DNA of 12,936 bases from a virus (IMGVR_UViG_3300045988_139237), one strand, 5' to 3'; counted from the stretch's first letter, positions 1 to 12,936 are shown. The notes: generated by a model not told the origin, from the sequence alone. Program-made: numbers and translations.

Positions 1-55
1 ACACGGACACATGTGTATGTCTCCGACGGACACATGTGTATGTCTCCGACGGACA
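1..55. repeat. Left inverted terminal repeat (55 bp)
   Basis: Positions 1-55 are the exact reverse complement of 12882-12936; identity breaks at 56/12881. Composition is AC plus 2.3 copies of a 23-bp unit. Confidence 0.95.
3..55. repeat. 23-bp tandem direct repeat x2.3 inside the ITR (mirrored at 12882-12934)
   Basis: The unit ACGGACACATGTGTATGTCTCCG occurs at 3-25 and 26-48 (identical), with a partial copy ACGGACA at 49-55. Each unit contains the perfect 10-bp palindrome ACACATGTGT (7-16, 30-39). Confidence 0.95.
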
Positions 56-84
56 ATAATTGCGGTATAATTTTATAAAAACTA

Positions 85-113
85 TTGACAATGCGGTATA
101 AATGTGGTATTAT
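85..113 (+). promoter_or_regulatory. P1, sigma-A/sigma-70-type promoter for the left (early) operon
   Basis: TTGACA (85-90), 17-bp spacer, TATTAT (108-113), with TG at 105-106 giving an extended -10 (TGgTATTAT). An A/T-rich tract lies at 70-84. The -10 hexamer ends 45 nt upstream of the first ATG. Confidence 0.75.
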
Positions 114-158
114 ATAATCATAACAAGGAGATAGCAACAAGAAAAGGAGAGTAGCAAA

Positions 159-389
159 ATGACAAAAAAAGTTTTTATCAAAAAAATTAGAGAACTCAAC
201 AAAAACTATAGACAAGTTATTGGTAATAAATGTGAGGGCATTTATATAAACAGTATTTATTTCCGTTATGAGCACATCAGATTGTGCTTTGACGATGATG
301 ATAGTTTATTATATATATTTGCAAGAAACCAAAACAAAATTATTGCGGGTGTCAGTTATACTGATTTAATAATTGGTTTTAACATCTAA
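159..389 (+). CDS. Hypothetical early protein (76 aa)
   Basis: ATG 159 is preceded by AAGGAG (144-149, 9-nt spacer). It is the first gene after P1. No recognisable motif. Confidence 0.7.
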   Translation: MTKKVFIKKIRELNKNYRQVIGNKCEGIYINSIYFRYEHIRLCFDDDDSLLYIFARNQNKIIAGVSYTDLIIGFNI

Positions 390-441
390 AATATATAAAC
401 TGCTGACCTATCGGCACGACGGGGAGAAAAAGAGGTATAAA

Positions 442-1026
442 ATGACAAGAACAGTTGATTTAATCAAAAAACACACTCAGGAGTACAATGAGTATATGCT
501 CAAAAATGGTGAGTACAGCTTCCACAGATTTACAGACGGTTCTATTCATTTCACAAAACCGGTGTTTGTTACTAGAAATATTGCGAAAGAAACTGACATA
601 TTACCTCTCAGACCAGTAAGAGAGTTAGAAGAGCTTGTGAAAGCCGCTATGGATGATGGCGCTTTAGTTACAATCAACGACTACATTAGATTTAGAGGAC
701 GTGACGCTATTTTAGGCGAAACTGAGATTGCGTTTTGTAATAGTAGTATTAGAATTGAATACACAGGGATTAGCAGCATATATGTCGATTTCAATCACGA
801 ACTGAGAAAAATCATGAAAGATATGCAAAACGGTCGTTACGGGGATGCTGTTTTTATAGATGGCGTTAAAATAAGTACCCATGATTTAGTGCTGTTGGAA
901 CAGGAATTGATGTATTTTCCAGATGATAACGATTTGCATACACACGGGATATATAAAAAATATAGTGACGTAAAATCAATTGTAGATATTGCCGGATATT
1001 ATATTTTTTGGAGGTTAAAAAAATGA
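442..1026 (+). CDS. Hypothetical early protein (194 aa)
   Basis: The ORF-track start at 373 (TTG) has no SD. ATG 442 is preceded by AGAGG (431-435, 6-nt spacer). The stop overlaps the next start (ATGA, 1023-1026). No recognisable motif. Confidence 0.7.
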   Translation: MTRTVDLIKKHTQEYNEYMLKNGEYSFHRFTDGSIHFTKPVFVTRNIAKETDILPLRPVRELEELVKAAMDDGALVTINDYIRFRGRDAILGETEIAFCNSSIRIEYTGISSIYVDFNHELRKIMKDMQNGRYGDAVFIDGVKISTHDLVLLEQELMYFPDDNDLHTHGIYKKYSDVKSIVDIAGYYIFWRLKK

Positions 1027-1190
1027 TAGCAACAACCACGAGTGATATAATTTATGTGTCTATAGCTTTAATTATGATGTTTGTGTCGGGGTACATCCTC
1101 GGCACAACAGACGAAATGGGAAGAGAGAAAAGGAGAAAAGAAAAACTCAGAAGAAAACGAGAGCAAAGAAAGGAGTTGAAAAAACATTGA
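1023..1190 (+). CDS. Small early membrane protein (55 aa) with one TM helix and a polybasic C-terminal tail
   Basis: ATG 1023 is preceded by GGAGG (1010-1014, 8-nt spacer). There is a hydrophobic stretch DIIYVSIALIMMFVSGYILG followed by GREKRRKEKLRRKREQRKELKKH. Translationally coupled on both sides (ATGA, TTGA). Confidence 0.65.
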   Translation: MIATTTSDIIYVSIALIMMFVSGYILGTTDEMGREKRRKEKLRRKREQRKELKKH

Positions 1191-1540
1191 GAAAATTATC
1201 ATTGCGATTAGATATGAGAATATACAATTGGGCAAAAGAATATGGAACAACAGTGAGCGAATACCTCGAACATGCTGTGTACTCGGCTTTGGAGTTCGGT
1301 GGCACTGGATTTCAATTCGAGCTAGTGCGAGCCGTGCCGAAGTACGATACAAGCGTGTATCTCACAGATAGGACTTTTAAAGAAGTGAAAAAGTTAGCAA
1401 AACAGAACAACCTCAGCAAAGCACAGATACTGAATCGTTCCGCGATAATGTTTCACGTGAAACATATTCACGATGTAGAACGAGAGGAAATGGAGAGTGA
1501 GCAGTGGCATGATGACAGATTATGCAAAACGCCGTACTAA
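1187..1540 (+). CDS. Tandem ribbon-helix-helix (CopG/Arc/MetJ-type) DNA-binding protein, putative transcription regulator (117 aa)
   Basis: TTG 1187 overlaps the upstream stop (TTGA). AGGAG lies at 1171-1175 in the context aggagttgaaaaaacaTTG, which mirrors aggagttgaaaaacATG at gene 4060. Two strand-helix-helix units are present: KLSLRLD-MRIYNWAKEYG-TTVSEYLEHAVYSAL and SVYLTD-RTFKEVKKLAKQNN-LSKAQILNRSAIMF. Confidence 0.6.
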   Translation: MRKLSLRLDMRIYNWAKEYGTTVSEYLEHAVYSALEFGGTGFQFELVRAVPKYDTSVYLTDRTFKEVKKLAKQNNLSKAQILNRSAIMFHVKHIHDVEREEMESEQWHDDRLCKTPY

Positions 1541-1967
1541 AGTTATAAGAAAGCTTAAAGTCTTAGCGCAAAACAAAAATTTCGGAATGGGTGCAAAGAG
1601 TAATATACAATACATGCTACAGCAATTACCACCAGAAAGTCAGATAAAAACCGCCCGCCAGAAACGAGGCGCAATGAAAGCACTAGAACAAGCTGAGAAA
1701 TCTGATTTATACAGTGTATCAGGGCAAAGGAGAATTGCCAGACGAAAAATGGCAAAACTTGAAAAGCTGGGGATTAAATTTAAGACTTATAAAGAGCTCA
1801 ATGAGTTTGGTGAGTTCATGGAATCTGTTCGCAATTATTCATTGGGGCGAGTATACGACAGCACAAAGGCGCTAGAGTTGTTTATTGATAGAGGTGGAAA
1901 ATCTGGTGATGAATTACTCAATCAGTACGGGGAATGGCAAAAAGCAAAGAGAAGAATTGATACGTAG
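1509..1967 (+). CDS. Candidate terminal (priming) protein, basic, 152 aa (start uncertain: GTG 1497 or ATG 1509/1512)
   Basis: It lies immediately upstream of, and overlaps, the protein-primed polymerase gene, which is the position of the TP gene in phi29, Cp-1, PRD1 and Bam35. It is Lys/Arg-rich. The N-terminal DYAKRRTKVIRKLKV...NFG loosely recalls the phi29 p3 N-terminus EYARLVKNTKAKIARTKKKYG (from memory, unverified). Confidence 0.4.
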   Translation: MMTDYAKRRTKVIRKLKVLAQNKNFGMGAKSNIQYMLQQLPPESQIKTARQKRGAMKALEQAEKSDLYSVSGQRRIARRKMAKLEKLGIKFKTYKELNEFGEFMESVRNYSLGRVYDSTKALELFIDRGGKSGDELLNQYGEWQKAKRRIDT

Positions 1968-3996
1968 AGTACAACAGATATATAGAACACCTAACATGAG
2001 AGGAAAACAACGCTTTGCAAAACAGTCATACCGAAATTGTATATGCGCTTTTGATATCGAAACTACACGACTTCCTGAAATCGAACAAAGCATCATGTAT
2101 TTATGGCAATTTGCGGTATTACTTGATGATAACGAAATAATATGTGTGTACGGGAGAAACTGGAACGAACTTGAAGAATTGTTTACTGGAATCGAAGATG
2201 AACACCTTATCACAATGATTTTCGTTCACAATCTGTCATACGAATTTCAGTTTCTGCGCTCACATATAGGAATAAAGCCGGATGAGGTGTTCTCTCTCAA
2301 ACCTCGAAAAATACTCAGAATCAGGGCAGGAAATCATATGCAAGGAAATTTGGAGTTTCGATGCTCATACATGCAGACACATAAGAGCCTTGACAAGTTC
2401 CTGAGCGATAGTGGGGTTGAGAACCAGAAGTTGAAAGATTTTGATTATGACAAGCGTAGATATCCGTGGACAGAATTAACACCCAAAGAAATTGAGTACG
2501 GATGCAACGATGTTATCGGATTATTACAGGCAATGCATAAACGATTGGTGGATAATAACGATACTCTATACACTCTACCATTAACATCTACAGGTTACGT
2601 CAGGCGAGAAGCAAGGCAAGCTATGAAACAGTACAATTATAAAAAACTGCACAGCATGATGTGCGATGCAAGCTTATACACACTTCTTAGAGAAGAATTC
2701 AGGGGTGGCGATACTCACGCAAATAGATATCATGTAGGGAAAATACTCAATAAGGTTGCTTCTTTTGACAGGGCAAGCTCTTACCCAGACGTTATGCTCA
2801 ATTGTGAATTTCCAATGACAAAATTTGTGCGACAGGGAAATTGCGGTATAGAGGATATTGACAGGTGGACAAAATTCCACAAGGCTTATGTGGGGCGATT
2901 CCATTTCCGAAACATCAGGCAAAAAGATGTGTATTACGGTGCGCCATATCTTACAAAAGACAAGGGCTATTACATAAGCACAGAATCAGTTTGGGACAAT
3001 GGTCGTCTACTCTCAGCCGATGAATACTCGTGTACACTAAACGATATTGATTTTGGAATTGTAAAAGGGGAATACGTTTGGGACAGCGTGGAACTTACAG
3101 ATTTTTATACAGCCGGGTATGGTTATCTTCCCGAACCATTGCGAAATCTGGTGAAACGCTTATTTACAGATAAAACGTCTTTAAAAGGTGTTGAGGGTAA
3201 GGAAATTGAGTACGCTCTGTCAAAAGAATTGATAAACTCACTATACGGGATGTCCGCGCAAAACCCTGTCAAGCCAGATATCATCTACAGCAACACCGAA
3301 AAACCATTCTCGGTTAAGGATGGGGACACAGAGGAAAAGTTAATGAAGTATAACAAAAGGGCATTTATGTTATACGCATGGGGTTGTTGGGTGACTGCTC
3401 ACGCAAGACAAAGGCTCAAGCTTGCCGTGAACATAGCTGACGAGGATTTCGTTTACTGCGACACAGATTCGTGTAAAATACTGATTACAGAAAGATATAC
3501 CGAAATCCAAAAGGGGTTTGACGAGCTGAATAATCGGTTAAAGAACGATTCTTCAGAAAATGGTGGTCATGCCACAGACCCAAAAGGCGTGGAACATTAT
3601 CTAGGCGTATATGAGTATGAGGGCACATCAGACCGATTTATCACATTAGGTGCGAAAAAATACGCCCAGGAAAAAAACGGCAAGCTCGAAATCACAATAG
3701 CAGGGGTGAACAAGAAAAAAGGTGCGGAAGAATTGCGGAAAATGGGCGGTTTGGAAGCTCTGAAAATCGGAACCACATTCAGGGCTGCAGGTGGCACAGA
3801 ATCTGTCTATAATGATACAGATTATGGTTATTACAACCCCGACCCAGACAACCCGGATAAAAGCGTGTGCATTACTAGAAACGTTGTCATACGCCCGTCT
3901 GAATATACTTTGGGACTTACTCTCGAATACCTGAACGTTCTTAACAGCGTTGACTTGTGGCATGATTTTCTAAAAAATACCAAAGAAAAGTCTTGA
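1909..3996 (+). CDS. Protein-primed family-B DNA polymerase (phi29 gp2-like), about 695 aa (start uncertain: TTG 1885, ATG 1909 or ATG 1996)
   Basis: Motifs read in order: ExoI FDIETT, ExoII HNLSYE, ExoIII YGCNDVIGL, motif A DRASSYPDVM, motif B KELINSLYG, motif C YCDTDS, and KxY (GAKKYAQ). These match phi29 DxE, HNLKFD, YxxxD, DxxSLYP, KxxxNSLYG, YCDTDS and KTY. Confidence 0.9.
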   Translation: MNYSISTGNGKKQREELIRRVQQIYRTPNMRGKQRFAKQSYRNCICAFDIETTRLPEIEQSIMYLWQFAVLLDDNEIICVYGRNWNELEELFTGIEDEHLITMIFVHNLSYEFQFLRSHIGIKPDEVFSLKPRKILRIRAGNHMQGNLEFRCSYMQTHKSLDKFLSDSGVENQKLKDFDYDKRRYPWTELTPKEIEYGCNDVIGLLQAMHKRLVDNNDTLYTLPLTSTGYVRREARQAMKQYNYKKLHSMMCDASLYTLLREEFRGGDTHANRYHVGKILNKVASFDRASSYPDVMLNCEFPMTKFVRQGNCGIEDIDRWTKFHKAYVGRFHFRNIRQKDVYYGAPYLTKDKGYYISTESVWDNGRLLSADEYSCTLNDIDFGIVKGEYVWDSVELTDFYTAGYGYLPEPLRNLVKRLFTDKTSLKGVEGKEIEYALSKELINSLYGMSAQNPVKPDIIYSNTEKPFSVKDGDTEEKLMKYNKRAFMLYAWGCWVTAHARQRLKLAVNIADEDFVYCDTDSCKILITERYTEIQKGFDELNNRLKNDSSENGGHATDPKGVEHYLGVYEYEGTSDRFITLGAKKYAQEKNGKLEITIAGVNKKKGAEELRKMGGLEALKIGTTFRAAGGTESVYNDTDYGYYNPDPDNPDKSVCITRNVVIRPSEYTLGLTLEYLNVLNSVDLWHDFLKNTKEKS

Positions 3997-4021
3997 CATA
4001 TACACCTACATATGCTATTAT
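3993..4021 (+). promoter_or_regulatory. P2, strong sigma-A-type promoter
   Basis: TTGACA (3993-3998), 17-bp spacer, TATTAT (4016-4021), with TG at 4013-4014 (TGcTATTAT). The -35 overlaps the polymerase stop codon TGA (3994-3996). Confidence 0.7.
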
Positions 4022-4059
4022 ACTTGTAACAAAACAAAATAGAAAAGGAGTTGAAAAAC

Positions 4060-4281: not shown

Positions 4282-4368
4282 GAGCACATTAAGAAACAAA
4301 CAGGTCGCAATCTGAAACAACTCATAGCTGTGGATAAAACAGCATAAAAGAAAAAAGGAGAAAACATC

Positions 4369-4725
4369 ATGGAAATTATTAAAACAAACATTCAGGAAAA
4401 CGAGTACACAATGGAGTTAATGTATGCATTGCTCGAGGACGAGAACAGAATCCGTCTTTCCGACATTGAAGGAACAACTGTGGAGTTTGACCACTATGCT
4501 ATTGTTGAAGATGAAAACGCAAAGGGCGAAGTTATGAAAACTCTGTCAATCGAGGATGCGGAAACACACAGCGTTTATGTGACGACTTCTACCTCATTCA
4601 TTCAGTCTTTCGAGCGCATTATCGCAATGGCTGAAAAATGTGGAACGGACTTCCGAAAAGTATCTGTATTTTCCAAAAAATCACAGCGTGGAAGAAACTT
4701 CTTAGTAGCAGGTTATGTGATATGA
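4369..4725 (+). CDS. Hypothetical acidic protein (118 aa)
   Basis: AAGGAG (4355-4360) lies 8 nt before ATG 4369. The N-terminal two-thirds is strongly acidic (about 21 D/E overall) and the C-terminus is basic. The stop overlaps the ATPase start. Confidence 0.7.
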   Translation: MEIIKTNIQENEYTMELMYALLEDENRIRLSDIEGTTVEFDHYAIVEDENAKGEVMKTLSIEDAETHSVYVTTSTSFIQSFERIIAMAEKCGTDFRKVSVFSKKSQRGRNFLVAGYVI

Positions 4726-5777
4726 AGAAACCCGAACTGTACAACAGTAACGGTTATGTGAATATAAGGGGCATCTTGGAAACAGGGTGCCCTTTTATCT
4801 TTATATGGGGCGGTAGAGGAACGGGAAAAACTTATGGTATTTTGAAACACGCTGTGGAAAACAATAAAAAATTCATTTACCTACGCACCCGACAAACTCA
4901 GATAGATATGATACGCACACCACAATTTAATCCGTTTAAGCAATACAATGCCGACTGTAACAGACGTATCACTCCGTCACCTATCAATAAAATGTATTCA
5001 GGTTTTTATGATACAGAGTTTGACGAGAAAACAAAAAAATATACAAACTCAGGGGAACCACTAGGCTACTCAGCAGCACTCGGCACTATATCCAATTTAC
5101 GAGGTTTCGGGGCAGCGGACGTTGAGTTGATGTTTTATGACGAGTTCATCCCGGAAAAGACAGAACCACAGTTAAAAAACGCCACAATCGCTCTCTTAAA
5201 TGGATATGAAACCATAAACAGAAATCGAGAGCTTATGGGAGATAAGCCTTTGCAGCTCATATGTGCATCAAACAGCGAAAACGCAAACTGCGACATATTC
5301 GCAAAACTAGGTTTAATCCGTAAAGTCACTGATATGCACAAAACAGGGCAGGAATTTAGCTATTTGCCTGATAGAGGTATTATCCTCGTCAATCTTGCCA
5401 ACTCCCCGATTTCACAGGCGAAATCTGAAACGGCTGTGTACAGAATGATTGGTAAAGACAGTGATTTTTACAAGATGTCAATTCAGAATGATTTCTATAC
5501 TGAGGACTATTCGGATATTAAATCCGAACCCATAAATGAGTACGTCCCCATTGTGACAGTTGGAGAAATAACCATATACACGCACAAAAGCAAGGAAAAA
5601 CTGTATATTACACAGCACCTACAAGGCTCACCCCAGATTACCTATTCCACGTCAACAAGAGATTTAACAGCTTTCCGGCACAAGTTCATATGGGTCTGGG
5701 GGATGTACCTTGACGGGTTAGTGAGTTTTTCTGATATCGAATCAAAATATTTACTTGACAATTATTTCAAGATGTGA
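4722..5777 (+). CDS. DNA encapsidation (packaging) ATPase, phi29 gp16-like (351 aa)
   Basis: ATG 4722 overlaps the upstream stop (ATGA). Walker A is WGGRGTGKTYG and Walker B is LMFYDEF. The blocks FIYLRTRQ, DEFIPEK and NRNRE...LICASNSEN parallel remembered phi29 gp16 FIYVRRYK, DEFIREK and FRNRE...CICLSNAVS. Confidence 0.9.
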   Translation: MKKPELYNSNGYVNIRGILETGCPFIFIWGGRGTGKTYGILKHAVENNKKFIYLRTRQTQIDMIRTPQFNPFKQYNADCNRRITPSPINKMYSGFYDTEFDEKTKKYTNSGEPLGYSAALGTISNLRGFGAADVELMFYDEFIPEKTEPQLKNATIALLNGYETINRNRELMGDKPLQLICASNSENANCDIFAKLGLIRKVTDMHKTGQEFSYLPDRGIILVNLANSPISQAKSETAVYRMIGKDSDFYKMSIQNDFYTEDYSDIKSEPINEYVPIVTVGEITIYTHKSKEKLYITQHLQGSPQITYSTSTRDLTAFRHKFIWVWGMYLDGLVSFSDIESKYLLDNYFKM

Positions 5778-5783
5778 TACTTT
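5755..5783 (+). promoter_or_regulatory. P3, candidate promoter for the structural/lysis operon
   Basis: TTGACA (5755-5760), 17-bp spacer, TACTTT (5778-5783), with TG at 5775-5776 (TGaTACTTT). The spacing and TGn are identical to P1 and P2, but the -10 hexamer is weak (T1, A2 and T6 only). The TG is part of the ATPase stop codon. Confidence 0.5.
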
Positions 5784-5791
5784 ATCATTGT

Positions 5792-5878
5792 AGGGGGAGT
5801 GGTACAAAACCGACGGGCGGAACCCGTGTACATGAGTTTGGTTGACTCACAGCACTTCCCCTCAATTCAAAAGAGGGG
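5792..5878 (+). ncRNA. Structured RNA element (multi-helix 5' leader or candidate small RNA) between the ATPase and holin-like genes
   Basis: A 10-bp outer stem (5792-5801 with 5853-5862, one G-U) encloses two hairpins. The first spans 5802-5831: GTAC/GTAC plus ACGGG/CCCGT with a 5-nt loop. The second spans 5834-5848: GAGT/ACTC with a 7-nt loop. An alternative 6-bp helix CCCCTC (5858-5863) / GAGGGG (5873-5878) occludes the SD of the 5887 gene. Confidence 0.45.
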
Positions 5879-5886
5879 GTGACAAT

Positions 5887-6081
5887 ATGGAATGGATTCA
5901 GGCAGTAAGCCAGTTATTCAGCTCTTTAGGTGTACCTGTAGCGTGCCTTGCAGTAACCTTTTATTTATGGTACAGGGAGACTGAAAACCATAAAGAAGAA
6001 ATACACAACCTCTCAGAGGTTCTGAACAACAACACGATGGCAATTCAGAAACTTGCAGACAAACTGGACGTAAAGGAGTGA
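5887..6081 (+). CDS. Holin-like small membrane protein (BhlA/UviB-like architecture), 64 aa
   Basis: GAGGGGG (5873-5879) lies 7 nt before ATG 5887; the ORF-track start at 5842 lacks an SD. The N-terminal TM segment LFSSLGVPVACLAVTFYLWY is followed by a charged helical tail (ETENHKEEIHNLSEVL...KLADKLD). This resembles the remembered BhlA layout. Confidence 0.5.
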   Translation: MEWIQAVSQLFSSLGVPVACLAVTFYLWYRETENHKEEIHNLSEVLNNNTMAIQKLADKLDVKE

Positions 6082-6085
6082 TACC

Positions 6086-6388
6086 ATGCCATTAGGCGCA
6101 AAAATTCTACTAGACCCCGATATGGAAGAACAGTACGGAATGATTAACATTATACCAGACTGCGATGTATATGGTGAATACAAGATAAGCACAAAGAGTT
6201 CCCCACTGATGTTGCGTGATAAGCCAGATACAAACGCAGATATCATTGTAGAGATGCCAAAAGGACGTACTATTTTTTGTTACGGGTTCACAGATATCAC
6301 TATGAACTGGTATCTTTGCGAATACTCCGACAGCGGAAAGATTTATACAGGTTTTTGTAATAAAAAATATTTAATAAAAAAGGAGTGA
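6086..6388 (+). CDS. Free-standing SH3b-like (bacterial SH3, cell-wall-binding type) domain protein, 100 aa
   Basis: AAGGAG (6073-6078) lies 7 nt before ATG 6086. The C-terminal 60 aa, LMLRDKPDTNADIIVEMPKGRTIFCYG...NWYLCEY..SGKIYTGFCNKKYL, follows the SH3b pattern (LNVRsGPs...vig.l.kGt.v.v....gW.kv.y.GktGyv...yl). Confidence 0.5.
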   Translation: MPLGAKILLDPDMEEQYGMINIIPDCDVYGEYKISTKSSPLMLRDKPDTNADIIVEMPKGRTIFCYGFTDITMNWYLCEYSDSGKIYTGFCNKKYLIKKE

Positions 6389-6392
6389 CAAC

Positions 6393-6749: not shown

Positions 6750-6753
6750 TATT

Positions 6754-7950
6754 ATGGGTTCATCAAATGAATTAACGACGGGCGCACCGAACGTAGCCAA
6801 TTTTAGCTCAGCTGCTATTCTGAATGAAATTGTAAGTCAGGCGACAGGCAACAAATCAATTAGCGCGATTTCGACTGGCAGTTTTACTTCGGTTGCTACA
6901 ACTGCACTCGGGTTGGGAATCGACCCGCTGTTAAACGCAATTTCTCAGGTTCTCAGTAGAACCATTTTTTCTATCCGACCATATTCACGAAAGTTTAAGG
7001 GGCTGTATCAGGATAACATGACTTTTGGAAACCATGTGCGGAAACTTAACATCGCAGATTCTGATTGGGATAAAGATGATAGATACGACCTGGAAGACGG
7101 ACAGAGCGTGGACGACCAGGCAGTGGCTATTCCAAAAATACTACAGACAAATTTCTATGGACAGAACGTTTACCAGAGACAGATTACACTGTTTAGAGAT
7201 CAGTTAAACGTTGCTTTACAAAATGAACAGGAATTTCAGAGGTTTGTTACTATGATTATGACAAATGCGTCTGATTTGATTGAACAGGCACATGAAGCAA
7301 CAGCAAGAATGACGCTTGCGAACTTTATCGGGGGTAAAGTTATAGGGGACACAGACAATGTTATTCATCTTGTGACAAAATACAATGAAGTAGCAGGAAC
7401 TACACTGACAACTGACACGGTAAAACAGCCTGAAAATTTTGTGCCGTTCATGAAGTGGGTGACAGGTTACATCAAAACAGTGTCAGACTGGATGTCTGAG
7501 AGAACACAAAAGTTTCACATTAACGTGACAGGAAAAGAGATTTCCAGACATACGCCATACAACAAACAGAAACTGTATCTGTATTCTGAGGAACTGAACA
7601 ACATTGATTCTACTGTTATGTCCTCTATCTTTAACGACAGCTATCTGAAAATGGCTGACCACGAGAAAGTTGGATTTTGGCAGAACATTGACACCCCCGA
7701 CGGTATCCATGTAAAAGCATCTTATATGGATAACCTCGGAAATATTGAATCTGATTCTGAGGGTACGGCTACATCGAATATTTTCGGCGTGTTATTCGAC
7801 GAGGAAGCAGTTGGTATCACAACTTACGGCGAGTGGTCTGCACCTTCACCGTTTAATGCACGGGGTGGGTACAGTAACATTTTCTGGCATTTCAATGACA
7901 GATATTATAATGATTTCACAGAAAATGGAGTTGTGTTCTTATTAGATTAA
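6754..7950 (+). CDS. Major capsid protein, phi29 gp8-like core (398 aa)
   Basis: AAGGAG (6741-6746) precedes ATG 6754. The size and the position after the scaffold gene fit. The blocks LSRTIFSIRPYSRKFKG and YQRQITLFRDQL...FQRFV parallel remembered phi29 gp8 VDRIGLVVIRQ...KKFKKG and YHQTIQDDSL...FESFV. There is no C-terminal Ig-like extension. Confidence 0.7.
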   Translation: MGSSNELTTGAPNVANFSSAAILNEIVSQATGNKSISAISTGSFTSVATTALGLGIDPLLNAISQVLSRTIFSIRPYSRKFKGLYQDNMTFGNHVRKLNIADSDWDKDDRYDLEDGQSVDDQAVAIPKILQTNFYGQNVYQRQITLFRDQLNVALQNEQEFQRFVTMIMTNASDLIEQAHEATARMTLANFIGGKVIGDTDNVIHLVTKYNEVAGTTLTTDTVKQPENFVPFMKWVTGYIKTVSDWMSERTQKFHINVTGKEISRHTPYNKQKLYLYSEELNNIDSTVMSSIFNDSYLKMADHEKVGFWQNIDTPDGIHVKASYMDNLGNIESDSEGTATSNIFGVLFDEEAVGITTYGEWSAPSPFNARGGYSNIFWHFNDRYYNDFTENGVVFLLD

Positions 7951-7965
7951 TAAGGTGGTGACAGC

Positions 7966-9342
7966 ATGAGAGTTCATTTTTACAATGTGGGAAAACGTAA
8001 AAATTCTACATGGGTTCCCCCAGATTCTTCTGCTGTTGTGACTAGAACTGGGGCTTTACGAAGCCCCTCTTCTATTTCAAGTCCAACGCTGAGCGTACAA
8101 TATAACGATGCTTCTGGGAATCCGACTAATTTAAATTACTGTTATGTTGAAGAGTTTAACAGATATTATTTTGTAAAAGACTGGACGTTTGAAGAGGGTC
8201 TATGGATTTGTTCATTAGAGTGTGACGTATTAGCAAGCTTCAAAAGCAAAATCATAGAAGAAGAATTTTACATTTTACGAAGCAGTGCCACTTTTGATGG
8301 TTCTGTAATAGACAATTTTTACCCCGCAAAATCTGGTTACACAAAAAAGGCGCAAGAAATTAGCGTACTGCCAGAAGGTGCAAGCACAGGTTGGATGACA
8401 GGGTTCATTATACTGACAGTAGTAGGTCAAGAGGGTGCATTAGAATATTACCAATTTCAAGTAACAGATTTCACAACGTTCTGCCAGAAAGCATTCGGCG
8501 ACATAGATTGGGCTGATATCAAAGAATCAGGAATAAAAGATTCCATTGTTAAAATTGTTATGAACCCATTCCAGTACGTGTCAAATTGTATGTGGATGCC
8601 TTTTGGTATACCCGGTGGAACAGAAGTGTCAGAACTTCCGTTAGGATATTGGAAAATTCCTGCAGTATGTACAAAATTGGATGGACTTTTAGCATACAAA
8701 CTAAAACGGAGTGTGACCTTGTCAAGTCATCCTCAGGCTTCTAGAGGTGATTACCTGAACCACGGCGCATATCATCGGTTGGAAATAGCCTCAAGACTAT
8801 TTGGTGTGATGCAAATTGACACCAATAAAATAAATATTAGCGCTCCAATTAATGTTGATTTCCGAATAGACCCAAGAACAGGTGTATATGATATCTCGTT
8901 TACTAATAATAATGCACTACTCGGCTATAGTTCTGGTATGTATGGTGTTCCTGTTCAAATAAATGAAGCTAGAAACAATCCTCTTGAGGGTGTGATATCA
9001 TCTGTAGCCGCACTCGGTAGTATTGCTTCCACTCAACTCATGAAAGGAGTTGGGTATATCGGGAACGCTGTAAATGAGTTCCTTCCTACAGTGTCGTCAA
9101 AAGGGTCTAATGGCTCAACTATAGGAACCGATTGTTGGATATCATTTTTTCAATATTTCCTAACAGTCACTGACGAGGACAACAGTGAAAATGGGAGACC
9201 GTATATGAAACGTGGTACTTTTAAGTCACTGGGAACCGGATATTATTTGGTAGAACATGGGGACATGAATATTACAGGGGCTTATTCAGATGAGATATCA
9301 AGAGTTAAATCATTGTTAGAAGGGGGTGTTTATTATGCATAG
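7966..9342 (+). CDS. Tail knob / distal tail tube protein, phi29 gp9-like (458 aa)
   Basis: AAGGTGG (7952-7958) precedes ATG 7966. The N-terminal block NYCYVEEFNRYYFVKDWTFEEGLWICSLECDVLASF parallels remembered phi29 gp9 YIMFQNADYGNKWFYAFVTELEF...VHFEIDVLQTW. Confidence 0.6.
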   Translation: MRVHFYNVGKRKNSTWVPPDSSAVVTRTGALRSPSSISSPTLSVQYNDASGNPTNLNYCYVEEFNRYYFVKDWTFEEGLWICSLECDVLASFKSKIIEEEFYILRSSATFDGSVIDNFYPAKSGYTKKAQEISVLPEGASTGWMTGFIILTVVGQEGALEYYQFQVTDFTTFCQKAFGDIDWADIKESGIKDSIVKIVMNPFQYVSNCMWMPFGIPGGTEVSELPLGYWKIPAVCTKLDGLLAYKLKRSVTLSSHPQASRGDYLNHGAYHRLEIASRLFGVMQIDTNKINISAPINVDFRIDPRTGVYDISFTNNNALLGYSSGMYGVPVQINEARNNPLEGVISSVAALGSIASTQLMKGVGYIGNAVNEFLPTVSSKGSNGSTIGTDCWISFFQYFLTVTDEDNSENGRPYMKRGTFKSLGTGYYLVEHGDMNITGAYSDEISRVKSLLEGGVYYA

Positions 9343-9979
9343 AAACATCAGAAATGACAACTCAGCATTATTAATAGGTCTTTCCATTGGTGGCTCTGGG
9401 GGTAGCGGTAGTGAAATCCCCCTGCCGTCTGGAAAATGGAATGTGATAGTTACAGACAAAGAGAACGGATATTTTACACTAGAACAAATGAAGCAAAATG
9501 CAGCCAATATTAACAACTACTTTAAGGAAAGAGGATGGAGTGCGTCAGCCAGAATGGCACTTTTGGGGAACATGGAAAAAGAAAGTACCATGAATCCCGG
9601 ATTAATTGAAGTTGGTGGCGGTACTACTTCGGCAGGCCCGGGAAGAGGTCTTGTACAGTGGACACCCGGTCAGAATCTTCTCACAGTTTTAGACGTGCTG
9701 TACAGTGGGCATGATGATTGGTATGATGGGGGAAAACAGTGTGCTGTTTTGTTTGCTGAATATCAGGAAAGTGTGGGGGATGCACATAGAGGTATTGAAC
9801 CGCAGTGGTATCAGACATCTAGTTATCCAATAACATGGAGACAATGGGCAACTGGAAACTATGATTTAAAATATCTAACAAATGCGTTCATGTATAATTA
9901 TCTCAGACCTGGCGACCTGAATCAGCCTGATAGATATGTAAAAGCGCAATACTGGAGTTCAATATTTATAAAGGGGTGA
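9335..9979 (+). CDS. Tail-associated peptidoglycan hydrolase, phi29 gp13 N-terminal lysozyme-like domain only (214 aa)
   Basis: GGGGGTG (9322-9328) precedes ATG 9335. LLGNMEKESTMNPGL...GRGLVQWTPGQN and YLRPGDLNQPDRYVKAQYW match remembered gp13 MLGNMQSESTINPGL...GFGLVQWTPASN and YERPANPNQPERGDQAEYW. There is no C-terminal M23 peptidase domain. Confidence 0.85.
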   Translation: MHRNIRNDNSALLIGLSIGGSGGSGSEIPLPSGKWNVIVTDKENGYFTLEQMKQNAANINNYFKERGWSASARMALLGNMEKESTMNPGLIEVGGGTTSAGPGRGLVQWTPGQNLLTVLDVLYSGHDDWYDGGKQCAVLFAEYQESVGDAHRGIEPQWYQTSSYPITWRQWATGNYDLKYLTNAFMYNYLRPGDLNQPDRYVKAQYWSSIFIKG

Positions 9980-9980
9980 T

Positions 9981-10901
9981 ATGATGCCATACAGTTATGA
10001 AATGGTAAACTTGTTTAACTCGTCTTACAGTCCGTCAACTCTTCACACAAAAAACACTCAAATGTTCAATTTTTTCAAGAAGTATTTACTCGAGAAAGTT
10101 ATATCTGTGTTTGAATTTGAGTTACCTGAAATGTGGGATAAGAATTATTTTCTGTACTCGTTGTTTTTAAATGGCTATCTGGCAATTGTGAATACGGACA
10201 AGTTTGGTGTTATATGTCAGCATTGTGAATTGAGAGGGTATAATATCTATTACAATCCCACACATGCCATAATTGTCAATCCTCTATTGACTGGAATTTT
10301 AGAACCTAAAATTGGCACTCAGTGTTCTCTTATCAGATTACAGCCAAATTATAGTGGTGTTTCTGATATCGTAAATTACTATGCAGATAATATGGCTATG
10401 ACTGCTGAAACGTGTGAAATGAATATCATGAATAGCAAGCTATCATTCCTTTTCGCAGTGAGAGGAAAAAGCCAGGCTGAATCAATGAAGAAAATTCTTG
10501 ACCAGGTGATGAGGGGTGAGCTAGGGGTTTTCTATGATGAAAAACTGAAAATGGGAAATGACAATATCCCATTAGATTTTTTTAACAATGACTTAAAAAA
10601 GAATTTTATTGCCCCGGAATTACAGGACACGTTAAGACGGTGGGAAGAAATGTTCTGTAATGAGGTTGGTATCCCGAACATAAGAAGCGACAAGAAAGAA
10701 CGTATGATAGTGGATGAAGTGAACAGCAACAATATTGAATGTTTCACAAAAGCGGAACTGTGGCTTGAAACACTAAAAGAGGGGGTTGAGCAAACCAACA
10801 AAATGTTCAATCTTGACCTCGGCGTTAAATTGCGTCATAATGAAGGGGGTGAGAATAATGCCCGGGGAACTTTACTTGCAGGGTCTGCTAGCATGGAATG
10901 A
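9981..10901 (+). CDS. Portal (head-tail connector / upper collar) protein, phi29 gp10-like (306 aa)
   Basis: AAGGGGTGA (9971-9979) precedes ATG 9981. WEEMFCNEVGIPNIRSDKKERMIVDEVNSNN...NLDLGVKLR parallels remembered gp10 [30 protein letters not shown]...GLNVKVKFR. The size is nearly identical to gp10 (309 aa). Confidence 0.85.
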   Translation: MMPYSYEMVNLFNSSYSPSTLHTKNTQMFNFFKKYLLEKVISVFEFELPEMWDKNYFLYSLFLNGYLAIVNTDKFGVICQHCELRGYNIYYNPTHAIIVNPLLTGILEPKIGTQCSLIRLQPNYSGVSDIVNYYADNMAMTAETCEMNIMNSKLSFLFAVRGKSQAESMKKILDQVMRGELGVFYDEKLKMGNDNIPLDFFNNDLKKNFIAPELQDTLRRWEEMFCNEVGIPNIRSDKKERMIVDEVNSNNIECFTKAELWLETLKEGVEQTNKMFNLDLGVKLRHNEGGENNARGTLLAGSASME

Positions 10902-11499
10902 GAATCTGTTGAAAGATAATTTCATAAGCCATTTACCTATCAATATGGTGAATGATATTGGAAAGGATAATATTCAGAACTATGTGTTGTTGAAATGTGC
11001 TGAACTGGAAGTTCTGATACCGTCACCTACTGAAATGGCGTTGGCTTTAAATTCGTGGGCTTCAGTGAATGAGAGATTGTTCTCAATCATCTATGATATA
11101 GAACTTGCTATTTCCACGACAGAGGGTGCAAAAACAGAAACGATTACGAGAGACAGGAAAGGAAAATCTGAAACAGAAGATAATGAAAATTTAAAACGTG
11201 AAAGTAATAGTGGGACGAGTGGGGCAGATTCAACAGCCGAAAAAGTGGCAGGGTTTAATTCTACGTCACTTGTGGATAAGGGAAGCACAACCATTACTTA
11301 TGGGGGAAAAGCAAGCTATGATGAGACAAATAACAACGCAAAAAATTCTAAAAATGAAACGACAGAAACGGAAAAAGAAACAAGGTCTACGGGGATGTCG
11401 GAACTTGAAGTGCTGGATTTCAAGCTTGAAAAATCTATGAGTGCACTGGGTAAAATTACTGAAATGTTTAAAGAGGAGTTTTTCCTGTTAGTGTATTAA
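10858..11499 (+). CDS. Putative lower collar / head-tail adaptor protein (by position), 213 aa
   Basis: GGGGGTGA (10845-10852) precedes ATG 10858; the ORF-track start at 10786 has no SD. It follows the portal gene, as gp11 does in phi29. The central region is rich in Thr/Ser/Glu/Lys/Asn and low in complexity. Confidence 0.4.
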   Translation: MPGELYLQGLLAWNENLLKDNFISHLPINMVNDIGKDNIQNYVLLKCAELEVLIPSPTEMALALNSWASVNERLFSIIYDIELAISTTEGAKTETITRDRKGKSETEDNENLKRESNSGTSGADSTAEKVAGFNSTSLVDKGSTTITYGGKASYDETNNNAKNSKNETTETEKETRSTGMSELEVLDFKLEKSMSALGKITEMFKEEFFLLVY

Positions 11500-11512
11500 G
11501 GAGGGTGAGAAA

Positions 11513-12838
11513 ATGTTTAAATTTCCATATACAAATTTTCATGAAATGAATTTAACATGGATTATAGAAACGGTAAAGAAGTTAGTAGACGAGTGGGTTA
11601 AAATGCAGGGTGATTTCTCCAATTTACAGGGTGACTTTGAGGAATTAAAGAAGTATGTGTCAGATTATTTTACAAAGCTTGAAATTGACAAGGAAATAAG
11701 AAAAATCCTAGAGGAAATGAAAACTAGCGGTGAGCTTTCAGAAATCATTTCAGATGCGTTATTACAGGGTGCGTTGGCGAGAGTTAATAAACCCACAGTT
11801 CTTATTTTGGGTGACAGTTACGGTGCAGGGGAAAACCTCTCTAATAAAGAAAATTCGTGGGCATATATGCTTAAAAATGCCCTCGAAAAAAATGGGTATA
11901 CAGTGAAACTGAGTGCCATTGGTGGTTATGGTTTTACAGCGGACGGAACAAAAACATTCACCAGTATGTTAAACACATTAGCTAACAGTATGACAACGAA
12001 TGACAAAACAAATGTTGTAAAGGTAATTGTAGGTGGTAGCTATAACGACCGAAATGCTCCTGAAAGTGATATCAGTCAGGGCATGATTGATTTTCAAAGT
12101 GCCATTTCAAACAATTTTGAAAACTGCAAAAATGTTGTTGTGTGCCCTATGGGTTGGACTTGGGAAGGACATCAGCAGGGTATCCACACATCAACAACAT
12201 ATATCAGTGTGATTAAAGCAATTAAAATCTGGATGTACTCAGCGGCTCAGTTAGGGTTCAGTGTTATCCCTGCATATCAGGGAATGTTGTATGAATCCTC
12301 CTTTTCAAATGATGGCGTGCATCCGTCCGACCAAGGGCAGAAGAATATTCTGAATATGGTAATTGGAGCGTTTGACGGACTTTATTTTAAACCAATTAAC
12401 AGTATCGAATATGGTACAACGTTTACAAAAACATCTAGTATCCCCGGTAAAGGTGGCGCGAAAATCAGATATTCCATTTTCAATGGTACTGCTAAAGTAA
12501 GATGTTTGGAGCTAAAGCTCAGTGAAATAAATGTGCCGAACCAGAAACTGGACGGAACACCATTAGAGATTGGTACTATTGACAGTCCGGCAATTCATTT
12601 TAATGCAACAGATTGTACGTTCCCGTGTAGTGTGATTCTGAGAGGTAAAGAAACTGACACAGCAGGTGAAGCAAATTTGTTCACAATGGTGCAGGGTTCT
12701 ATTAAAATTTCAGAAAAAAAAGTGTATTTAATTATGCACGCGATTAATACTGCGAAAAGGAATTATTTAAAGTATGACATCAACCAGATAGAGTGCGTAG
12801 ATTTTGGGGAATTTGTCTTCGACCCTCTTTTTCAGTAG
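11513..12838 (+). CDS. Tail appendage / receptor-binding protein with an SGNH (GDSL) esterase domain (441 aa)
   Basis: AAGGAGGGTGA (11498-11508) precedes ATG 11513. All four SGNH blocks are present: LILGDSYGAG (I), IGGYGF (II), GGSYNDRN (III) and DGVHPSDQG (V). There is an N-terminal helical/coiled segment and a C-terminal domain of about 150 aa. It occupies the gp12 position after the collar gene. Confidence 0.7.
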   Translation: MFKFPYTNFHEMNLTWIIETVKKLVDEWVKMQGDFSNLQGDFEELKKYVSDYFTKLEIDKEIRKILEEMKTSGELSEIISDALLQGALARVNKPTVLILGDSYGAGENLSNKENSWAYMLKNALEKNGYTVKLSAIGGYGFTADGTKTFTSMLNTLANSMTTNDKTNVVKVIVGGSYNDRNAPESDISQGMIDFQSAISNNFENCKNVVVCPMGWTWEGHQQGIHTSTTYISVIKAIKIWMYSAAQLGFSVIPAYQGMLYESSFSNDGVHPSDQGQKNILNMVIGAFDGLYFKPINSIEYGTTFTKTSSIPGKGGAKIRYSIFNGTAKVRCLELKLSEINVPNQKLDGTPLEIGTIDSPAIHFNATDCTFPCSVILRGKETDTAGEANLFTMVQGSIKISEKKVYLIMHAINTAKRNYLKYDINQIECVDFGEFVFDPLFQ

Positions 12839-12852
12839 GTGAACAAACGTTT

Positions 12853-12878
12853 GGCCTCGACTTCGGTCGGGGTCTTTT
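12853..12878 (+). terminator. Rho-independent terminator closing the single-strand transcription unit
   Basis: Stem CCUCGAC (12855-12861) / GUCGGGG (12866-12872), with one G-U pair, a UUCG tetraloop (12862-12865) and a following UCUUUU (12873-12878). It lies 15 nt after the last stop codon and 3 nt before the right ITR. Confidence 0.75.
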
Positions 12879-12881
12879 GCG

Positions 12882-12936
12882 TGTCCGTCGGAGACATACA
12901 CATGTGTCCGTCGGAGACATACACATGTGTCCGTGT
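12882..12936. repeat. Right inverted terminal repeat (55 bp)
   Basis: Exact reverse complement of 1-55. Confidence 0.95.

What the first reader, a model, noticed from the sequence alone, without database searches (positions are those of the whole stretch)
1..12936. The window is a complete, unusually small (12.9 kb) phi29-like genome with every gene on one strand
Perfect ITRs sit exactly at both ends of the window. A protein-primed PolB and a full but minimal virion module are all fitted into 12,936 bp and about 18 genes: ATPase, scaffold-position protein, capsid, knob, tail lysin, portal, collar-position protein and appendage. From established knowledge, phi29 is about 19.3 kb and its characterised relatives are roughly 16-27 kb. 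Those phages have early genes on the opposite strand from late genes. Here transcription is strictly unidirectional, running from a promoter 30 bp inside the left ITR to a terminator 3 bp from the right ITR. This would place it among the smallest tailed dsDNA phages and suggests a distinct lineage of protein-primed podophages.
Basis: partly seen in the sequence, partly recalled or inferred. Interest (0 to 1): 0.7.

Follow-up and report, generated by a model that had tools for sequence, protein, structure and literature searches.

The report
Small gut phi29-like phage genome
The window is a nearly complete genome, about 13 kb, of a small phi29-type phage that is common in human-gut data; phages of this size and layout are already known, but it carries a conserved folded RNA that looks like the packaging RNA so far known only from phi29 and its Bacillus relatives.

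Summary
The observation mostly holds. Perfect 55-nt inverted repeats sit at both ends. All 18 genes lie on the + strand. The hallmark phi29 proteins are present: protein-primed PolB, gp16 ATPase, phi29-type capsid, gp9 knob, gp10 connector, gp11 collar and a tail lysozyme.

The window is not complete. A same-strain contig runs 38 nt past the right end into a terminal sequence conserved in at least 18 relatives. The 55-nt repeat equals the largest default SPAdes k-mer. The true ITR is about 98 nt and the genome about 13,022 bp.

It is not a new lineage. IMG/VR holds about 26 near-full-length relatives at 81-95% nucleotide identity and more than 500 related loci, all 12-14 kb. Isolates of 10.4-12.3 kb exist, and a 2024 review describes 11-14 kb phi29-like genomes.

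One unexpected feature stands out. A 75-nt RNA at 5789-5863, with its own promoter, shows strong covariation and the topology of phi29 pRNA, including a co-varying bulge/loop pairing. It occurs in at least 70 related loci and in the cultured Amedibacillus phage AD70P3. It is either a packaging RNA outside the Bacillus phages or a leader of the late operon.

The parts
1..55 (.). Left inverted terminal repeat, inner 55 nt only. It carries three CGGACA boxes 23 nt apart. About 43 nt of outer ITR are missing.
85..113 (+). Promoter P1, TTGACA-17-TGnTATTAT
   Evidence: read from the sequence
159..389 (+). g01, 76 aa, unknown function, strong RBS
442..1026 (+). g02, 194 aa, unknown function, fast-evolving
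1023..1190 (+). g03, 55 aa, one transmembrane helix plus a basic tail
1187..1540 (+). g04, 117 aa, weak ribbon-helix-helix / Arc-like DNA-binding hits
   Evidence: sub-threshold
1449..1464 (.). Perfect palindrome TGTTTCACGTGAAACA, conserved across the whole phage family. Candidate operator, binder unknown.
1497..1967 (+). g05, 156 aa, basic, overlaps the polymerase start. Terminal-protein candidate by position and by an N-terminal motif only.
   Evidence: hhalign E 0.036, probability 1.4%: inconclusive
1909..3996 (+). Protein-primed family B DNA polymerase. The ORF is open from 1885; the ATG at 1909 is the start called in public assemblies.
3993..4021 (+). Promoter P2, TTGACA-17-TGnTATTAT, with the same hexamers as P1
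4060..4281 (+). g07, 73 aa, unknown function. + strand coding shown by codon-position variation.
4369..4725 (+). g08, 118 aa, sub-threshold match to phi29 SSB (PF17427, E 0.02)
4638..5777 (+). gp16-type DNA packaging ATPase. The start is uncertain; an alternative ATG lies at 4722.
5755..5783 (+). Promoter P3, TTGACA-17-TGaTACTTT. It is conserved upstream of the RNA in every clade and places the start about 1-2 nt before the closing helix.
   Evidence: read from the sequences
5789..5863 (+). Structured RNA, a three-way junction. P1/A helix 5792-5801 pairs with 5853-5862. P2/C helix 5802-5805 pairs with 5828-5831. The bulge is 5806-5812 (AACC at 5808-5811). The E hairpin is 5813-5827 with loop CGGAA. 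The D hairpin is 5834-5848 with loop UUGGUUG (GGUU at 5840-5843). pRNA-like candidate.
5887..6081 (+). g10, 64 aa, one transmembrane helix, holin-like (weak)
6086..6388 (+). g11, 100 aa, bacterial SH3-like (weak)
6393..6749 (+). g12, 118 aa, Pro/Ala/Thr-rich linker followed by a C-terminal region that looks helical by eye (not computed). Scaffold candidate by position only.
6754..7950 (+). Major capsid protein, phi29 type
7966..9342 (+). Tail knob, phi29 gp9 fold. The low-confidence loop at residues 334-378 sits where gp9 has its long loop.
9335..9979 (+). Tail-type lysozyme (PF18013), similar to the N-terminal domain of phi29 gp13
9981..10901 (+). Portal / upper collar connector (gp10)
10858..11499 (+). 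Lower collar (gp11 homologue), 213 aa
   Evidence: hhalign probability 95%. The AF2 model was unusable.
11513..12838 (+). Appendage / receptor-binding protein with an SGNH/GDSL-like hydrolase domain (below the Pfam cut-off) and a conserved N-terminal ~25 aa
12853..12879 (+). Intrinsic terminator: 9-bp stem, UUCG loop, U-run
   Evidence: z = -3.0
12882..12936 (.). Right inverted terminal repeat, inner 55 nt only. A same-strain contig continues 38 nt further.

Best explanation
The window is the near-complete linear genome of an uncultured, lytic, phi29-like podophage that is widespread in human-gut sequence data.

Genome ends. The true genome is about 13.02 kb with ITRs of about 98 nt that begin GTGGAATACTCAAGTCC. 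A de Bruijn assembler at k = 55 collapsed the shared ITR and left only the 55-mer next to each unique end. That is why the repeats look perfect and sit exactly at the ends.

Replication (inferred). It is protein-primed from both ends by the family B polymerase. The primer is probably the small basic protein encoded just upstream (g05). The periodic CGGACA boxes in the ITR are likely origin-binding sites.

Transcription. It runs left to right from three host-type promoters at 85, 3993 and 5755, and ends at one terminator at 12853-12879.

Virion and packaging. The virion module is the minimal phi29 set: capsid, gp9 knob, tail lysozyme, gp10 connector, gp11 collar and an SGNH appendage. DNA is packaged by a gp16-type ATPase. 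I rate it the single most likely reading, at about 0.45, that the 75-nt three-way-junction RNA encoded right after the ATPase gene assists packaging. It has the helix order and the CE-bulge/D-loop pairing of phi29 prohead RNA.

Shown here: gene identities, strandedness, truncated ends, population of relatives, RNA structure and covariation. Inferred: the terminal protein, the origin function of the boxes, promoter use and the RNA's function. The confidence given below is for the genome-level statement; the RNA-as-packaging-RNA sub-claim stands at about 0.45.
For: Ends:
- Same-strain SPAdes contig L035 has 0 mismatches over 2,999 nt and then 38 extra nt.
- A second contig from that assembly, L038, starts at exactly window nt 1.
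- At least 18 relatives begin or end with GTGGAATACTC. One has a TruSeq adaptor remnant abutting it, and the terminal sequence varies between relatives, so it is not an adaptor.
- ITRs of 38-92 nt in relatives start at that outer end.

Identity: Pfam/PHROG hits, knob fold, collar hhalign.

Population: about 26 relatives at 81-95% identity, 12.5-13.5 kb; more than 525 related ATPase loci with contigs up to about 14.2 kb; homologue-bearing contigs never exceed about 15.3 kb.

One strand.

Promoters and terminator.

RNA:
- Independent MFE folds of dissimilar sequences give the same three-way junction.
- Covariance models find it at the same place in 16 and then 54 further loci.
- 91.5-95.9% of cells are paired, against 64-72% in shuffles and 29-55% when slid. 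21 of 23 and 24 of 27 pairs change on both sides.
- The bulge/loop helix is 97% paired and takes about 11 different complementary sequences across clades.
- The helix order is the same as in phi29 pRNA folded. The features of the pRNA family are taken from PMC5066667.
Against: - The outer 38 nt were seen only at the right end of this strain. The last 5 nt (GTGGA) and the left outer part are inferred from relatives.
- That the window's own assembler used k = 55 is an inference.
- The terminal-protein assignment is not supported statistically (hhalign probability 1.4%).
- For the RNA: neither the Rfam pRNA model nor my models link it to the phi29, B103 or GA-1 pRNAs.
- In the window's clade no terminator separates the RNA from the first late gene.
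- In MT835998 the RNA stays with the structural operon while the ATPase gene is on the other strand. That also fits a leader RNA.
- The host is unknown.
Confidence: 0.85

Rival explanations
1. The 75-nt RNA is not a packaging RNA. It is a cis-acting 5' leader of the late (lysis and structural) operon, for example a riboswitch-like or protein-binding attenuator. The bulge/loop pairing is then an intramolecular pseudoknot, and the 3' strand of the closing helix competes with the ribosome-binding site or forms part of a terminator.
For: - The RNA always sits at the head of the structural operon, including in MT835998, where the ATPase gene is elsewhere.
- In the window only 23 nt separate it from the g10 start codon, and CCCCUC in the P1 3' strand is complementary to the g10 RBS GAGGGG.
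- In L040 and AD70P3 a U-run follows P1, and in L062/L088 a terminator follows the element. That is the usual arrangement of an attenuator.
- Three-way junctions with loop-loop contacts are common in riboswitch aptamers (established knowledge).
Against: - The junction strands are short and not conserved. The only conserved single-stranded sequence is the E loop CGGAA, which is unlike a ligand pocket.
- In L062/L088 the terminator is followed by operator-like palindromes and about 100 nt more before the first late gene. That suggests a separate transcription unit.
- The helix order and the co-varying bulge/loop pairs match pRNA point for point.
- These phages have a gp16-type ATPase, and in phi29 that ATPase needs pRNA to dock on the connector (PMC5066667).
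Confidence: 0.4
2. The window is truly complete: a 12,936-bp genome with 55-bp ITRs that start ACACGG.
For: The perfect repeat lies exactly at both ends. An independent contig, L038, starts at the same base.
Against: - A same-strain contig extends 38 nt further into a sequence that forms the conserved terminus of at least 18 relatives.
- 55 nt is the largest default SPAdes k-mer. A shared start in a second SPAdes assembly is what a graph branch point would give.
- Relatives at 92-95% identity all carry the outer segment.
Confidence: 0.03
3. The element is not an autonomous phage. It is a linear phage-plasmid or a defective or satellite element.
For: Some phi29-related sequences are phage-plasmids (PMC11476376). 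No dedicated endolysin was identified apart from the tail-type lysozyme.
Against: - A full replication, packaging and virion gene set is present.
- No partition, toxin-antitoxin or integrase genes were found.
- Hundreds of independent assemblies have the same size and gene order.
- The cultured relative AD70P3 is a plaque-forming isolate with the same layout.
Confidence: 0.03

Closest known systems
IMG/VR uncultivated viral genomes of the same clade (e.g. IMGVR_UViG_3300045988_115397, _125340, _122178, _104999)
   Same: 81-95% nucleotide identity over 80-100% of the window. Same gene order, same size (12.5-13.5 kb), same promoters and same RNA element.
   Different: They carry the outer ~43 nt of the termini that the window lacks. 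In the nearest relatives the two ends diverge after 31-52 nt, whereas the window has a tandemly duplicated 23-nt unit on both ends. None is formally classified as far as these tools show.
Amedibacillus phages AD70P2/AD70P3 (12.2-12.3 kb isolates; NCBI places them in Guelinviridae)
   Same: Same gene order from replication genes to appendage. Nearly one-strand layout (14 of 17 genes). Polymerase 34%, capsid 31%, portal 31% and ATPase 30% identical. The same RNA element with its promoter lies in the gap after the ATPase gene.
   Different: Much lower G+C (27% against 39.5%). Three small outward-facing genes at one end. No tail lysozyme between knob and portal. The early proteins are unrelated at the sequence level.
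Astrithrvirus and relatives infecting Gram-negative hosts (Salmonella phage astrithr 11.6 kb, Pectobacterium DU_PP_III, Acinetobacter Phanie, Vibrio K58 g2 10.4 kb)
   Same: Small protein-primed podophages, mostly one-stranded, with short ITRs. Polymerase 31-34% identical.
   Different: Different order of structural genes (portal before capsid). Capsid only 24% identical. Four leftward genes at the right end. The RNA models found no element.
Bacillus phage phi29 and Salasmaviridae
   Same: The hallmark set is shared: protein-primed PolB, gp16 ATPase, gp8 capsid, gp9 knob, gp10 connector, gp11 collar and a gp13-type lysozyme. The termini are ITRs. The candidate RNA has the helix order of pRNA, and in this clade even the same AACC/GGUU pair and the D-loop sequence UUGGUUG.
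   Different: Phi29 is 19.3 kb with early and late genes on opposite strands, 6-nt ITRs, a p4-dependent late promoter and its pRNA at the left end under an early promoter. The polymerase is only about 24% identical. The Rfam pRNA model does not match this RNA.

Membership tests
phi29-like phages (hallmark set of Evseev et al. 2024, PMC11476376: p2, p8, p9, p10, p11, p16) | Protein-primed family B DNA polymerase (p2) | tested here: met
   PF03175 at 55.7 bits against a cut-off of 25.8; phrog_1907 E 6.6e-59
phi29-like phages (hallmark set) | phi29-type major capsid protein (p8) | tested here: met
   PF25622 at 65.4 bits against a cut-off of 27
phi29-like phages (hallmark set) | Tail knob (p9) | tested here: met
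   AF2 model pLDDT 82; Foldseek 5fb5 E 1.9e-12, probability 1.00, TM 0.54; the next hit has E 1.7e-3
phi29-like phages (hallmark set) | Upper collar / connector (p10) | tested here: met
   PF05352 at 74.3 bits; phrog_2038 E 9e-34
phi29-like phages (hallmark set) | Lower collar (p11) | tested here: met
   hhalign of the clade profile against phi29/B103/GA-1 gp11 gives probability 95% and E 3.8e-8 over 44 columns; cross-controls give 0.1-0.2%. The AF2 model was too poor to use.
phi29-like phages (hallmark set) | gp16-type packaging ATPase (p16) | tested here: met
   PF05894 at 47.2 bits against a cut-off of 25; phrog_2150 E 4.8e-33
phi29-like phages | Linear genome with inverted terminal repeats | tested here: met
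   55-nt ITR in the window and about 98 nt when reconstructed. Relatives have 38-92 nt.
phi29-like phages | Terminal protein covalently bound to the 5' ends | not testable with these tools
   Candidate gene g05 lies upstream of the polymerase. Only an N-terminal basic motif aligns with phi29 TP (hhalign E 0.036, probability 1.4%).
Salasmaviridae (phi29, B103, GA-1) | Close protein relatedness and divergent early/late transcription on opposite strands | tested here: not met
   Polymerase about 24% identical. All genes are on one strand.
Guelinviridae (as NCBI files AD70P3) | Shared-gene and phylogenetic criteria of the family | not tested
   Only pairwise identities of 30-34% to AD70P3 were measured. 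The review notes that the Amedibacillus phages cluster apart from the Clostridium Guelinviridae.
Prohead RNA (pRNA; Rfam RF00044; features from PMC5066667) | Match to the curated covariance model | tested here: not met
   No hit at E <= 10 on the whole window or on 5740-5900. The model also misses the annotated GA-1 pRNA, so this test has little power.
Prohead RNA (pRNA) | Helix order: A 5', C 5', CE bulge, E hairpin, C 3', D hairpin, A 3', around a three-way junction | tested here: met
   Structure supported by covariation. Same order as in the phi29 pRNA fold.
Prohead RNA (pRNA) | Watson-Crick complementarity between the CE bulge and the D loop that co-varies between phages | tested here: met
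   97% of cells paired; 3 of 4 pairs change on both sides. About 11 different complementary pairs occur across clades. Whether the pairing is in cis or in trans cannot be told from sequence.
Prohead RNA (pRNA) | Bound to proheads and required for DNA packaging | not testable with these tools
   Needs experiments. AD70P3 is a cultured phage that carries the element.

The most novel reading that the evidence does not exclude
The 75-nt RNA at 5789-5863, with its homologues in at least 70 related gut-phage loci and in the cultured Amedibacillus phage AD70P3, is a functional prohead (packaging) RNA. It would be the first outside the Bacillus Salasmaviridae. That would mean an RNA component of the packaging motor is ancestral or widespread in the phi29 supergroup and not a Bacillus-phage oddity. 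It would also be a much smaller natural pRNA (about 75 nt) than the 117-174-nt Bacillus versions.
Probability: 0.45. Interest if true: 0.8.

Novelty: new member of a known kind. Interest (0 to 1): 0.5.

Why it matters
As a genome, this is one more member of an already catalogued group of 10-14 kb phi29-like phages. Its main practical lesson is that a perfect ITR at contig ends whose length equals the assembler's k-mer marks truncated ends, not physical termini.

The embedded RNA is the valuable part. Reviews state that pRNA is known only from phi29 and its Bacillus relatives (PMC5066667, PMC11476376). How other phi29-like phages dock a gp16-type ATPase on the connector is an open question. A strongly co-varying RNA with pRNA topology is present in a very abundant gut-phage family and in a cultured isolate. 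That makes the question directly testable, and it offers new natural self-assembling RNA scaffolds.

Tried and rejected
- Megablast of the whole window against INPHARED found nothing.
- An exact search for the tandem-unit junction in IMG/VR found nothing.
- phmmer of the knob, collar and appendage proteins against PDB sequences gave nothing useful.
- The AF2 model of the collar, built from a shallow alignment, was unusable (pLDDT 42), so I used hhalign instead.
- The search for homologous proteins for g05 and g17 returned only close relatives, so no deep alignment for the terminal protein could be made.
- Rfam scans of the window and of the RNA region gave only chance-level hits.
- The RNA models did not detect the phi29, B103 or GA-1 pRNAs, and found nothing in astrithr, HM2 or MT836263.
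- The gaps at 4282-4368, 4022-4062 and 119-160 show no notable folding.
- Minus-strand ORFs were rejected as genes. All are embedded in + strand ORFs and are not conserved in position, and the only competitor region shows a + frame codon signature.
- The idea that GTGGAATACTC is an adaptor was rejected because it varies between relatives and real adaptor remnants sit outside it.
- Host inference from the genome collection gave only whole-phage-sized contigs binned into Phascolarctobacterium and Christensenellaceae MAGs. I do not trust these as host evidence.

Full report
**1. The observation**

The window has a 55-nt, 100% complementary inverted repeat exactly at its two ends. The repeat consists of a 23-nt unit, CGGACACATGTGTATGTCTCCGA, present about 2.4 times. 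CGGACA therefore recurs every 23 nt. Six of the window's ten CGGACA copies lie in the two termini, against 4.2 copies expected by chance in the whole window.

Every long ORF is on the + strand and 96% of the window codes on that strand. GC and AT skews stay positive almost throughout.

The only place where a minus-strand ORF could compete is 4018-4320 (100 aa), which overlaps the + ORF at 4060-4281. Across 24 relatives the variable columns fall 12/11/41 on codon positions 1/2/3 of the + frame, so the + strand codes. Other minus ORFs are embedded in + genes and are not conserved in position.

The two best promoter matches in the window are identical in form, TTGACA-17-TGnTATTAT, at 85-113 and 3993-4021. 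The best free-standing terminator is at 12853-12874 plus a U-run, 3 nt before the right repeat (fold z = -3.0).

**2. Gene content**

Above curated cut-offs:
- PolB of the protein-primed type (PF03175)
- gp16 packaging ATPase (PF05894)
- phi29-type capsid (PF25622)
- connector (PF05352)
- tail-type lysozyme (PF18013)

The 458-aa protein had no sequence-level hit. An AlphaFold model built from 48 homologues (pLDDT 82, pTM 0.68) matches only the phi29 gp9 tail knob (5fb5, E 1.9e-12, probability 1.00; the next hit has E 1.7e-3).

For the 213-aa protein after the portal, the structure model failed (pLDDT 42). A profile of the clade aligns to phi29/B103/GA-1 gp11 with 95% probability (E 3.8e-8), against 0.1-0.2% for cross-controls.

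The last gene carries an SGNH/GDSL-like domain below the Pfam cut-off. Its N-terminal ~25 residues are conserved in distant relatives.

Weak but sensible hints:
- g08 resembles phi29 SSB (E 0.02).
- g04 resembles a ribbon-helix-helix protein.
- g11 resembles bacterial SH3.
- g10 is a single-pass membrane protein.

The terminal protein remains a positional guess. g05 is 156 aa, basic, and overlaps the polymerase start. Proteins in that position share an N-terminal basic motif across clades, and that motif aligns with the N-terminus of phi29 TP. The score is not significant (E 0.036, probability 1.4%).

**3. The ends are not the physical ends**

IMG/VR holds about 26 near-full-length relatives with 81-95% nucleotide identity and 12.5-13.5 kb. 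At least 18 of them begin or end with GTGGAATACTCAAGTCCGTGGTGGA-CGGACA. That start lies about 43 nt outside the position homologous to window nt 1.

That outer sequence is genuine phage DNA. It varies between relatives (AATATTC in one, GTGGCGG against GTGGTGG in others). Recognisable Illumina adaptor remnants lie outside it, and in L029 GCTCTTCCGATCT abuts GTGGAATACTC, which marks a physical end (adaptor identities are from my own knowledge).

The decisive evidence is L035, a SPAdes-style contig from ENA assembly ERZ654221. It is identical to the window over 2,999 nt and then continues 38 nt into exactly this sequence. Another contig of that assembly, L038, starts at exactly window nt 1.

A repeat of exactly 55 nt, whose inner boundary is where the left and right unique sequences diverge, is what a k = 55 de Bruijn graph gives. 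The ITR collapses into one edge, and the unique edge keeps one k-mer of it at each side. That the window's assembly used k = 55 is my inference.

The reconstructed ITR is about 98 nt with four CGGACA boxes, and the genome is about 13,022 bp. The left outer part and the last 5 nt are inferred from relatives.

**4. How unusual is it?**

By polymerase, the nearest annotated phages are:
- human-faecal MAGs of 12-14 kb (41-47% identical)
- Amedibacillus phages AD70P2/P3 (12.2-12.3 kb, 34%)
- Clostridium phage HM2 (17.5 kb, 35%)
- the Gram-negative group: astrithr/Astrid/assan 11.6-11.7 kb, DU_PP_III 11.5 kb, Phanie 11.9 kb, Vibrio K58 g2 10.4 kb (31-34%)
- the phi29 group, at only about 24%

AD70P3 has the same gene order and 14 of 17 annotated genes on one strand. 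Astrithr has 11 of 15. My ORF tiling shows the strict one-strand layout throughout the clade and in more distant IMG/VR relatives. It puts 21 of 26 ORFs of HM2 on one strand. Two MAGs with 41-43% identical polymerases are bidirectional.

An ATPase profile finds more than 525 related stretches in IMG/VR, with contigs of about 12-14.2 kb among the 80 kept. Knob homologues fall in 177 clusters, one with 792 members, on contigs never longer than about 15.3 kb.

Evseev et al. 2024 (PMC11476376) report 2,115 phi29-related sequences. They list many 12-14 kb human-metagenome genomes and state that genomes of 11-14 kb occur in this group.

The size and layout are therefore typical of an already recognised, populous part of the phi29 supergroup. 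Near-identical genomes are public, although I found no formal classification of this clade.

**5. An unexpected RNA**

The 109-nt gap between the ATPase stop codon and g10 folds into a three-way junction. The homologous gaps of relatives show compensatory changes.

A covariance model built from the window's clade found the element in 16 divergent loci with about 50% ATPase identity. A second model found it in 54 more. In nearly every case it lies on the coding strand 25-50 nt after the ATPase gene. A subgroup has a 94-96-nt version in which the E hairpin is replaced by two hairpins.

Pair counts:
- First alignment: 91.5% of cells paired, against 63.8% in shuffles and 29-44% when slid. 21 of 23 pairs change on both sides.
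- Second alignment, with the extra helix: 95.9% against 71.5% in shuffles and 29-55% when slid, with 24 of 27 pairs changing on both sides.

These alignments were fitted to the model. However, single-sequence MFE folds of very dissimilar members give the same architecture independently.

A 4-6-nt stretch of the bulge between helices P2 and E is complementary to the loop of the other hairpin. That pairing co-varies: it is 97% paired and 3 of 4 pairs change on both sides. About 11 different forms appear across clades:
- AACC(A/G)A:UUGGUU in the window's clade
- GAAAC:GUUUC
- GCUG:CAGC
- GGAC:GUCC
- GCUAU:GUAGC
- GUACA:UGUAC
- GUGC:GCAC
- GGGUAA:UUACCC
- GCACA:UGUGC
- GACUA:UAGUC
- UAUCC:GGAUA in AD70P3

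This is the helix order of phi29 pRNA: A 5', C 5', CE bulge, E hairpin, C 3', D hairpin, A 3'. It also has the pRNA hallmark of CE/D loop pairing (PMC5066667). In the window's clade even the AACC/GGUU pair and the D-loop sequence UUGGUUG coincide with phi29.

A TTGACA promoter with an extended -10 precedes the element in every clade and puts the start at the first bases of the closing helix. In several clades that helix is lengthened by an outer helix.

In L062/L088 a canonical terminator follows the element. After it come palindromic boxes and about 100 nt more before the first late gene, so the RNA looks like its own transcription unit there.

Evidence against a simple pRNA reading:
- No model links it to the Bacillus pRNAs. 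The Rfam model also misses the annotated GA-1 pRNA, so that test is weak.
- In the window's clade only 23 nt separate the RNA from the g10 start codon, and the P1 3' strand is complementary to the RBS.
- In MT835998 the RNA stays with the structural operon while the ATPase gene lies on the other strand.

I rate packaging RNA at about 0.45, a late-operon leader at about 0.4, and other functions for the remainder. I found no prior report in the searchable literature. Two reviews say pRNA is known only from phi29-like Bacillus phages.

**6. Verdict**

The interpretation of an unusually small, distinct lineage is not supported, and the genome is a new member of a known kind.

The score is raised above ordinary only by the RNA element. 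It is real, conserved and co-varying. Because the cultured phage AD70P3 carries it, the question whether packaging RNAs exist outside Bacillus phages can now be tested directly.

Noticed in passing
window 5789-5863 (+), promoter 5755-5783; also L001 (AD70P3) 6276-6398 (-), L032 5451-5525, L040 12897-12971 (-), L062 5463-5558 and at least 70 other loci: A conserved 75-96-nt three-way-junction RNA with its own promoter, strong covariation and a co-varying bulge/hairpin-loop pairing. It has the same helix order as phi29 pRNA and is not in Rfam.
   Followed up: yes
window 1449-1464 (inside g04, 35 nt before g05); L032 x4, L034 x3, L047 x4, L059 x3, L062 x3, L088 x4, L089 x2, L106 x1, L001 8513: The perfect palindrome TGTTTCACGTGAAACA is invariant in the window's clade. 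It is present in 1-4 copies in every other clade, although their proteins are only 30-50% identical. In L062/L088 two copies lie between the RNA terminator and the first late gene. It is probably an operator; the binder is unknown (possibly the RHH-like g04 or a host factor).
   Followed up: partly
window 4-9, 27-32, 50-55 and mirror copies at 12882-12933; relatives L005-L031, first and last ~100 nt: CGGACA boxes recur every 21-23 nt in the terminal repeats: three in the window's 55 nt and a fourth in the missing outer part. The spacers between them diverge between relatives and between the two ends of one genome while the boxes stay. This recalls the periodic p6 binding at phi29 origins. The function is untested.
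   Followed up: partly
window 1-55 compared with L005, L011 and L014 ends: In the window both ends carry a tandem duplication of one 23-nt unit, so the inner ITR is perfect for 55 nt. In the nearest relatives (92-93% identical) the left and right ends differ after 31-52 nt. This suggests recent end-to-end copying (gene conversion) in this strain.
   Followed up: no
L006, L016, L027, L029 ends; L012 both ends: Several IMG/VR contigs of this clade carry Nextera or TruSeq adaptor remnants at their ends. L012 has long poly-A runs at one end and inside its other terminus. These look like uncleaned library artefacts in public viral contigs.
   Followed up: no
window 3993-4021 and 85-113: The promoter at the end of the polymerase gene has exactly the same -35 and -10 hexamers, spacing and TG as the leftmost promoter. 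Together with the promoter at 5755 this gives three host-type promoters and a single terminator, with no obvious early/late switch.
   Followed up: partly
window 9335-9979, 5887-6388: No separate endolysin gene was found. The only muralytic domain is the tail-type lysozyme between the knob and the portal. Upstream there are a small membrane protein (g10) and a free-standing SH3-like protein (g11).
   Followed up: no
L114 (QAMT01000010.1, 12,489 nt) and L115 (JAZNMA010000005.1): Whole-phage-sized contigs of related phages are binned into bacterial MAGs labelled Phascolarctobacterium sp. and Christensenellaceae. These are likely binning artefacts, or at best weak host hints.
   Followed up: no
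L113 (GA-1) 1719-1879: The Rfam pRNA model RF00044 does not reach its gathering score on the annotated GA-1 pRNA. The curated family is therefore narrower than the biological family.
   Followed up: partly
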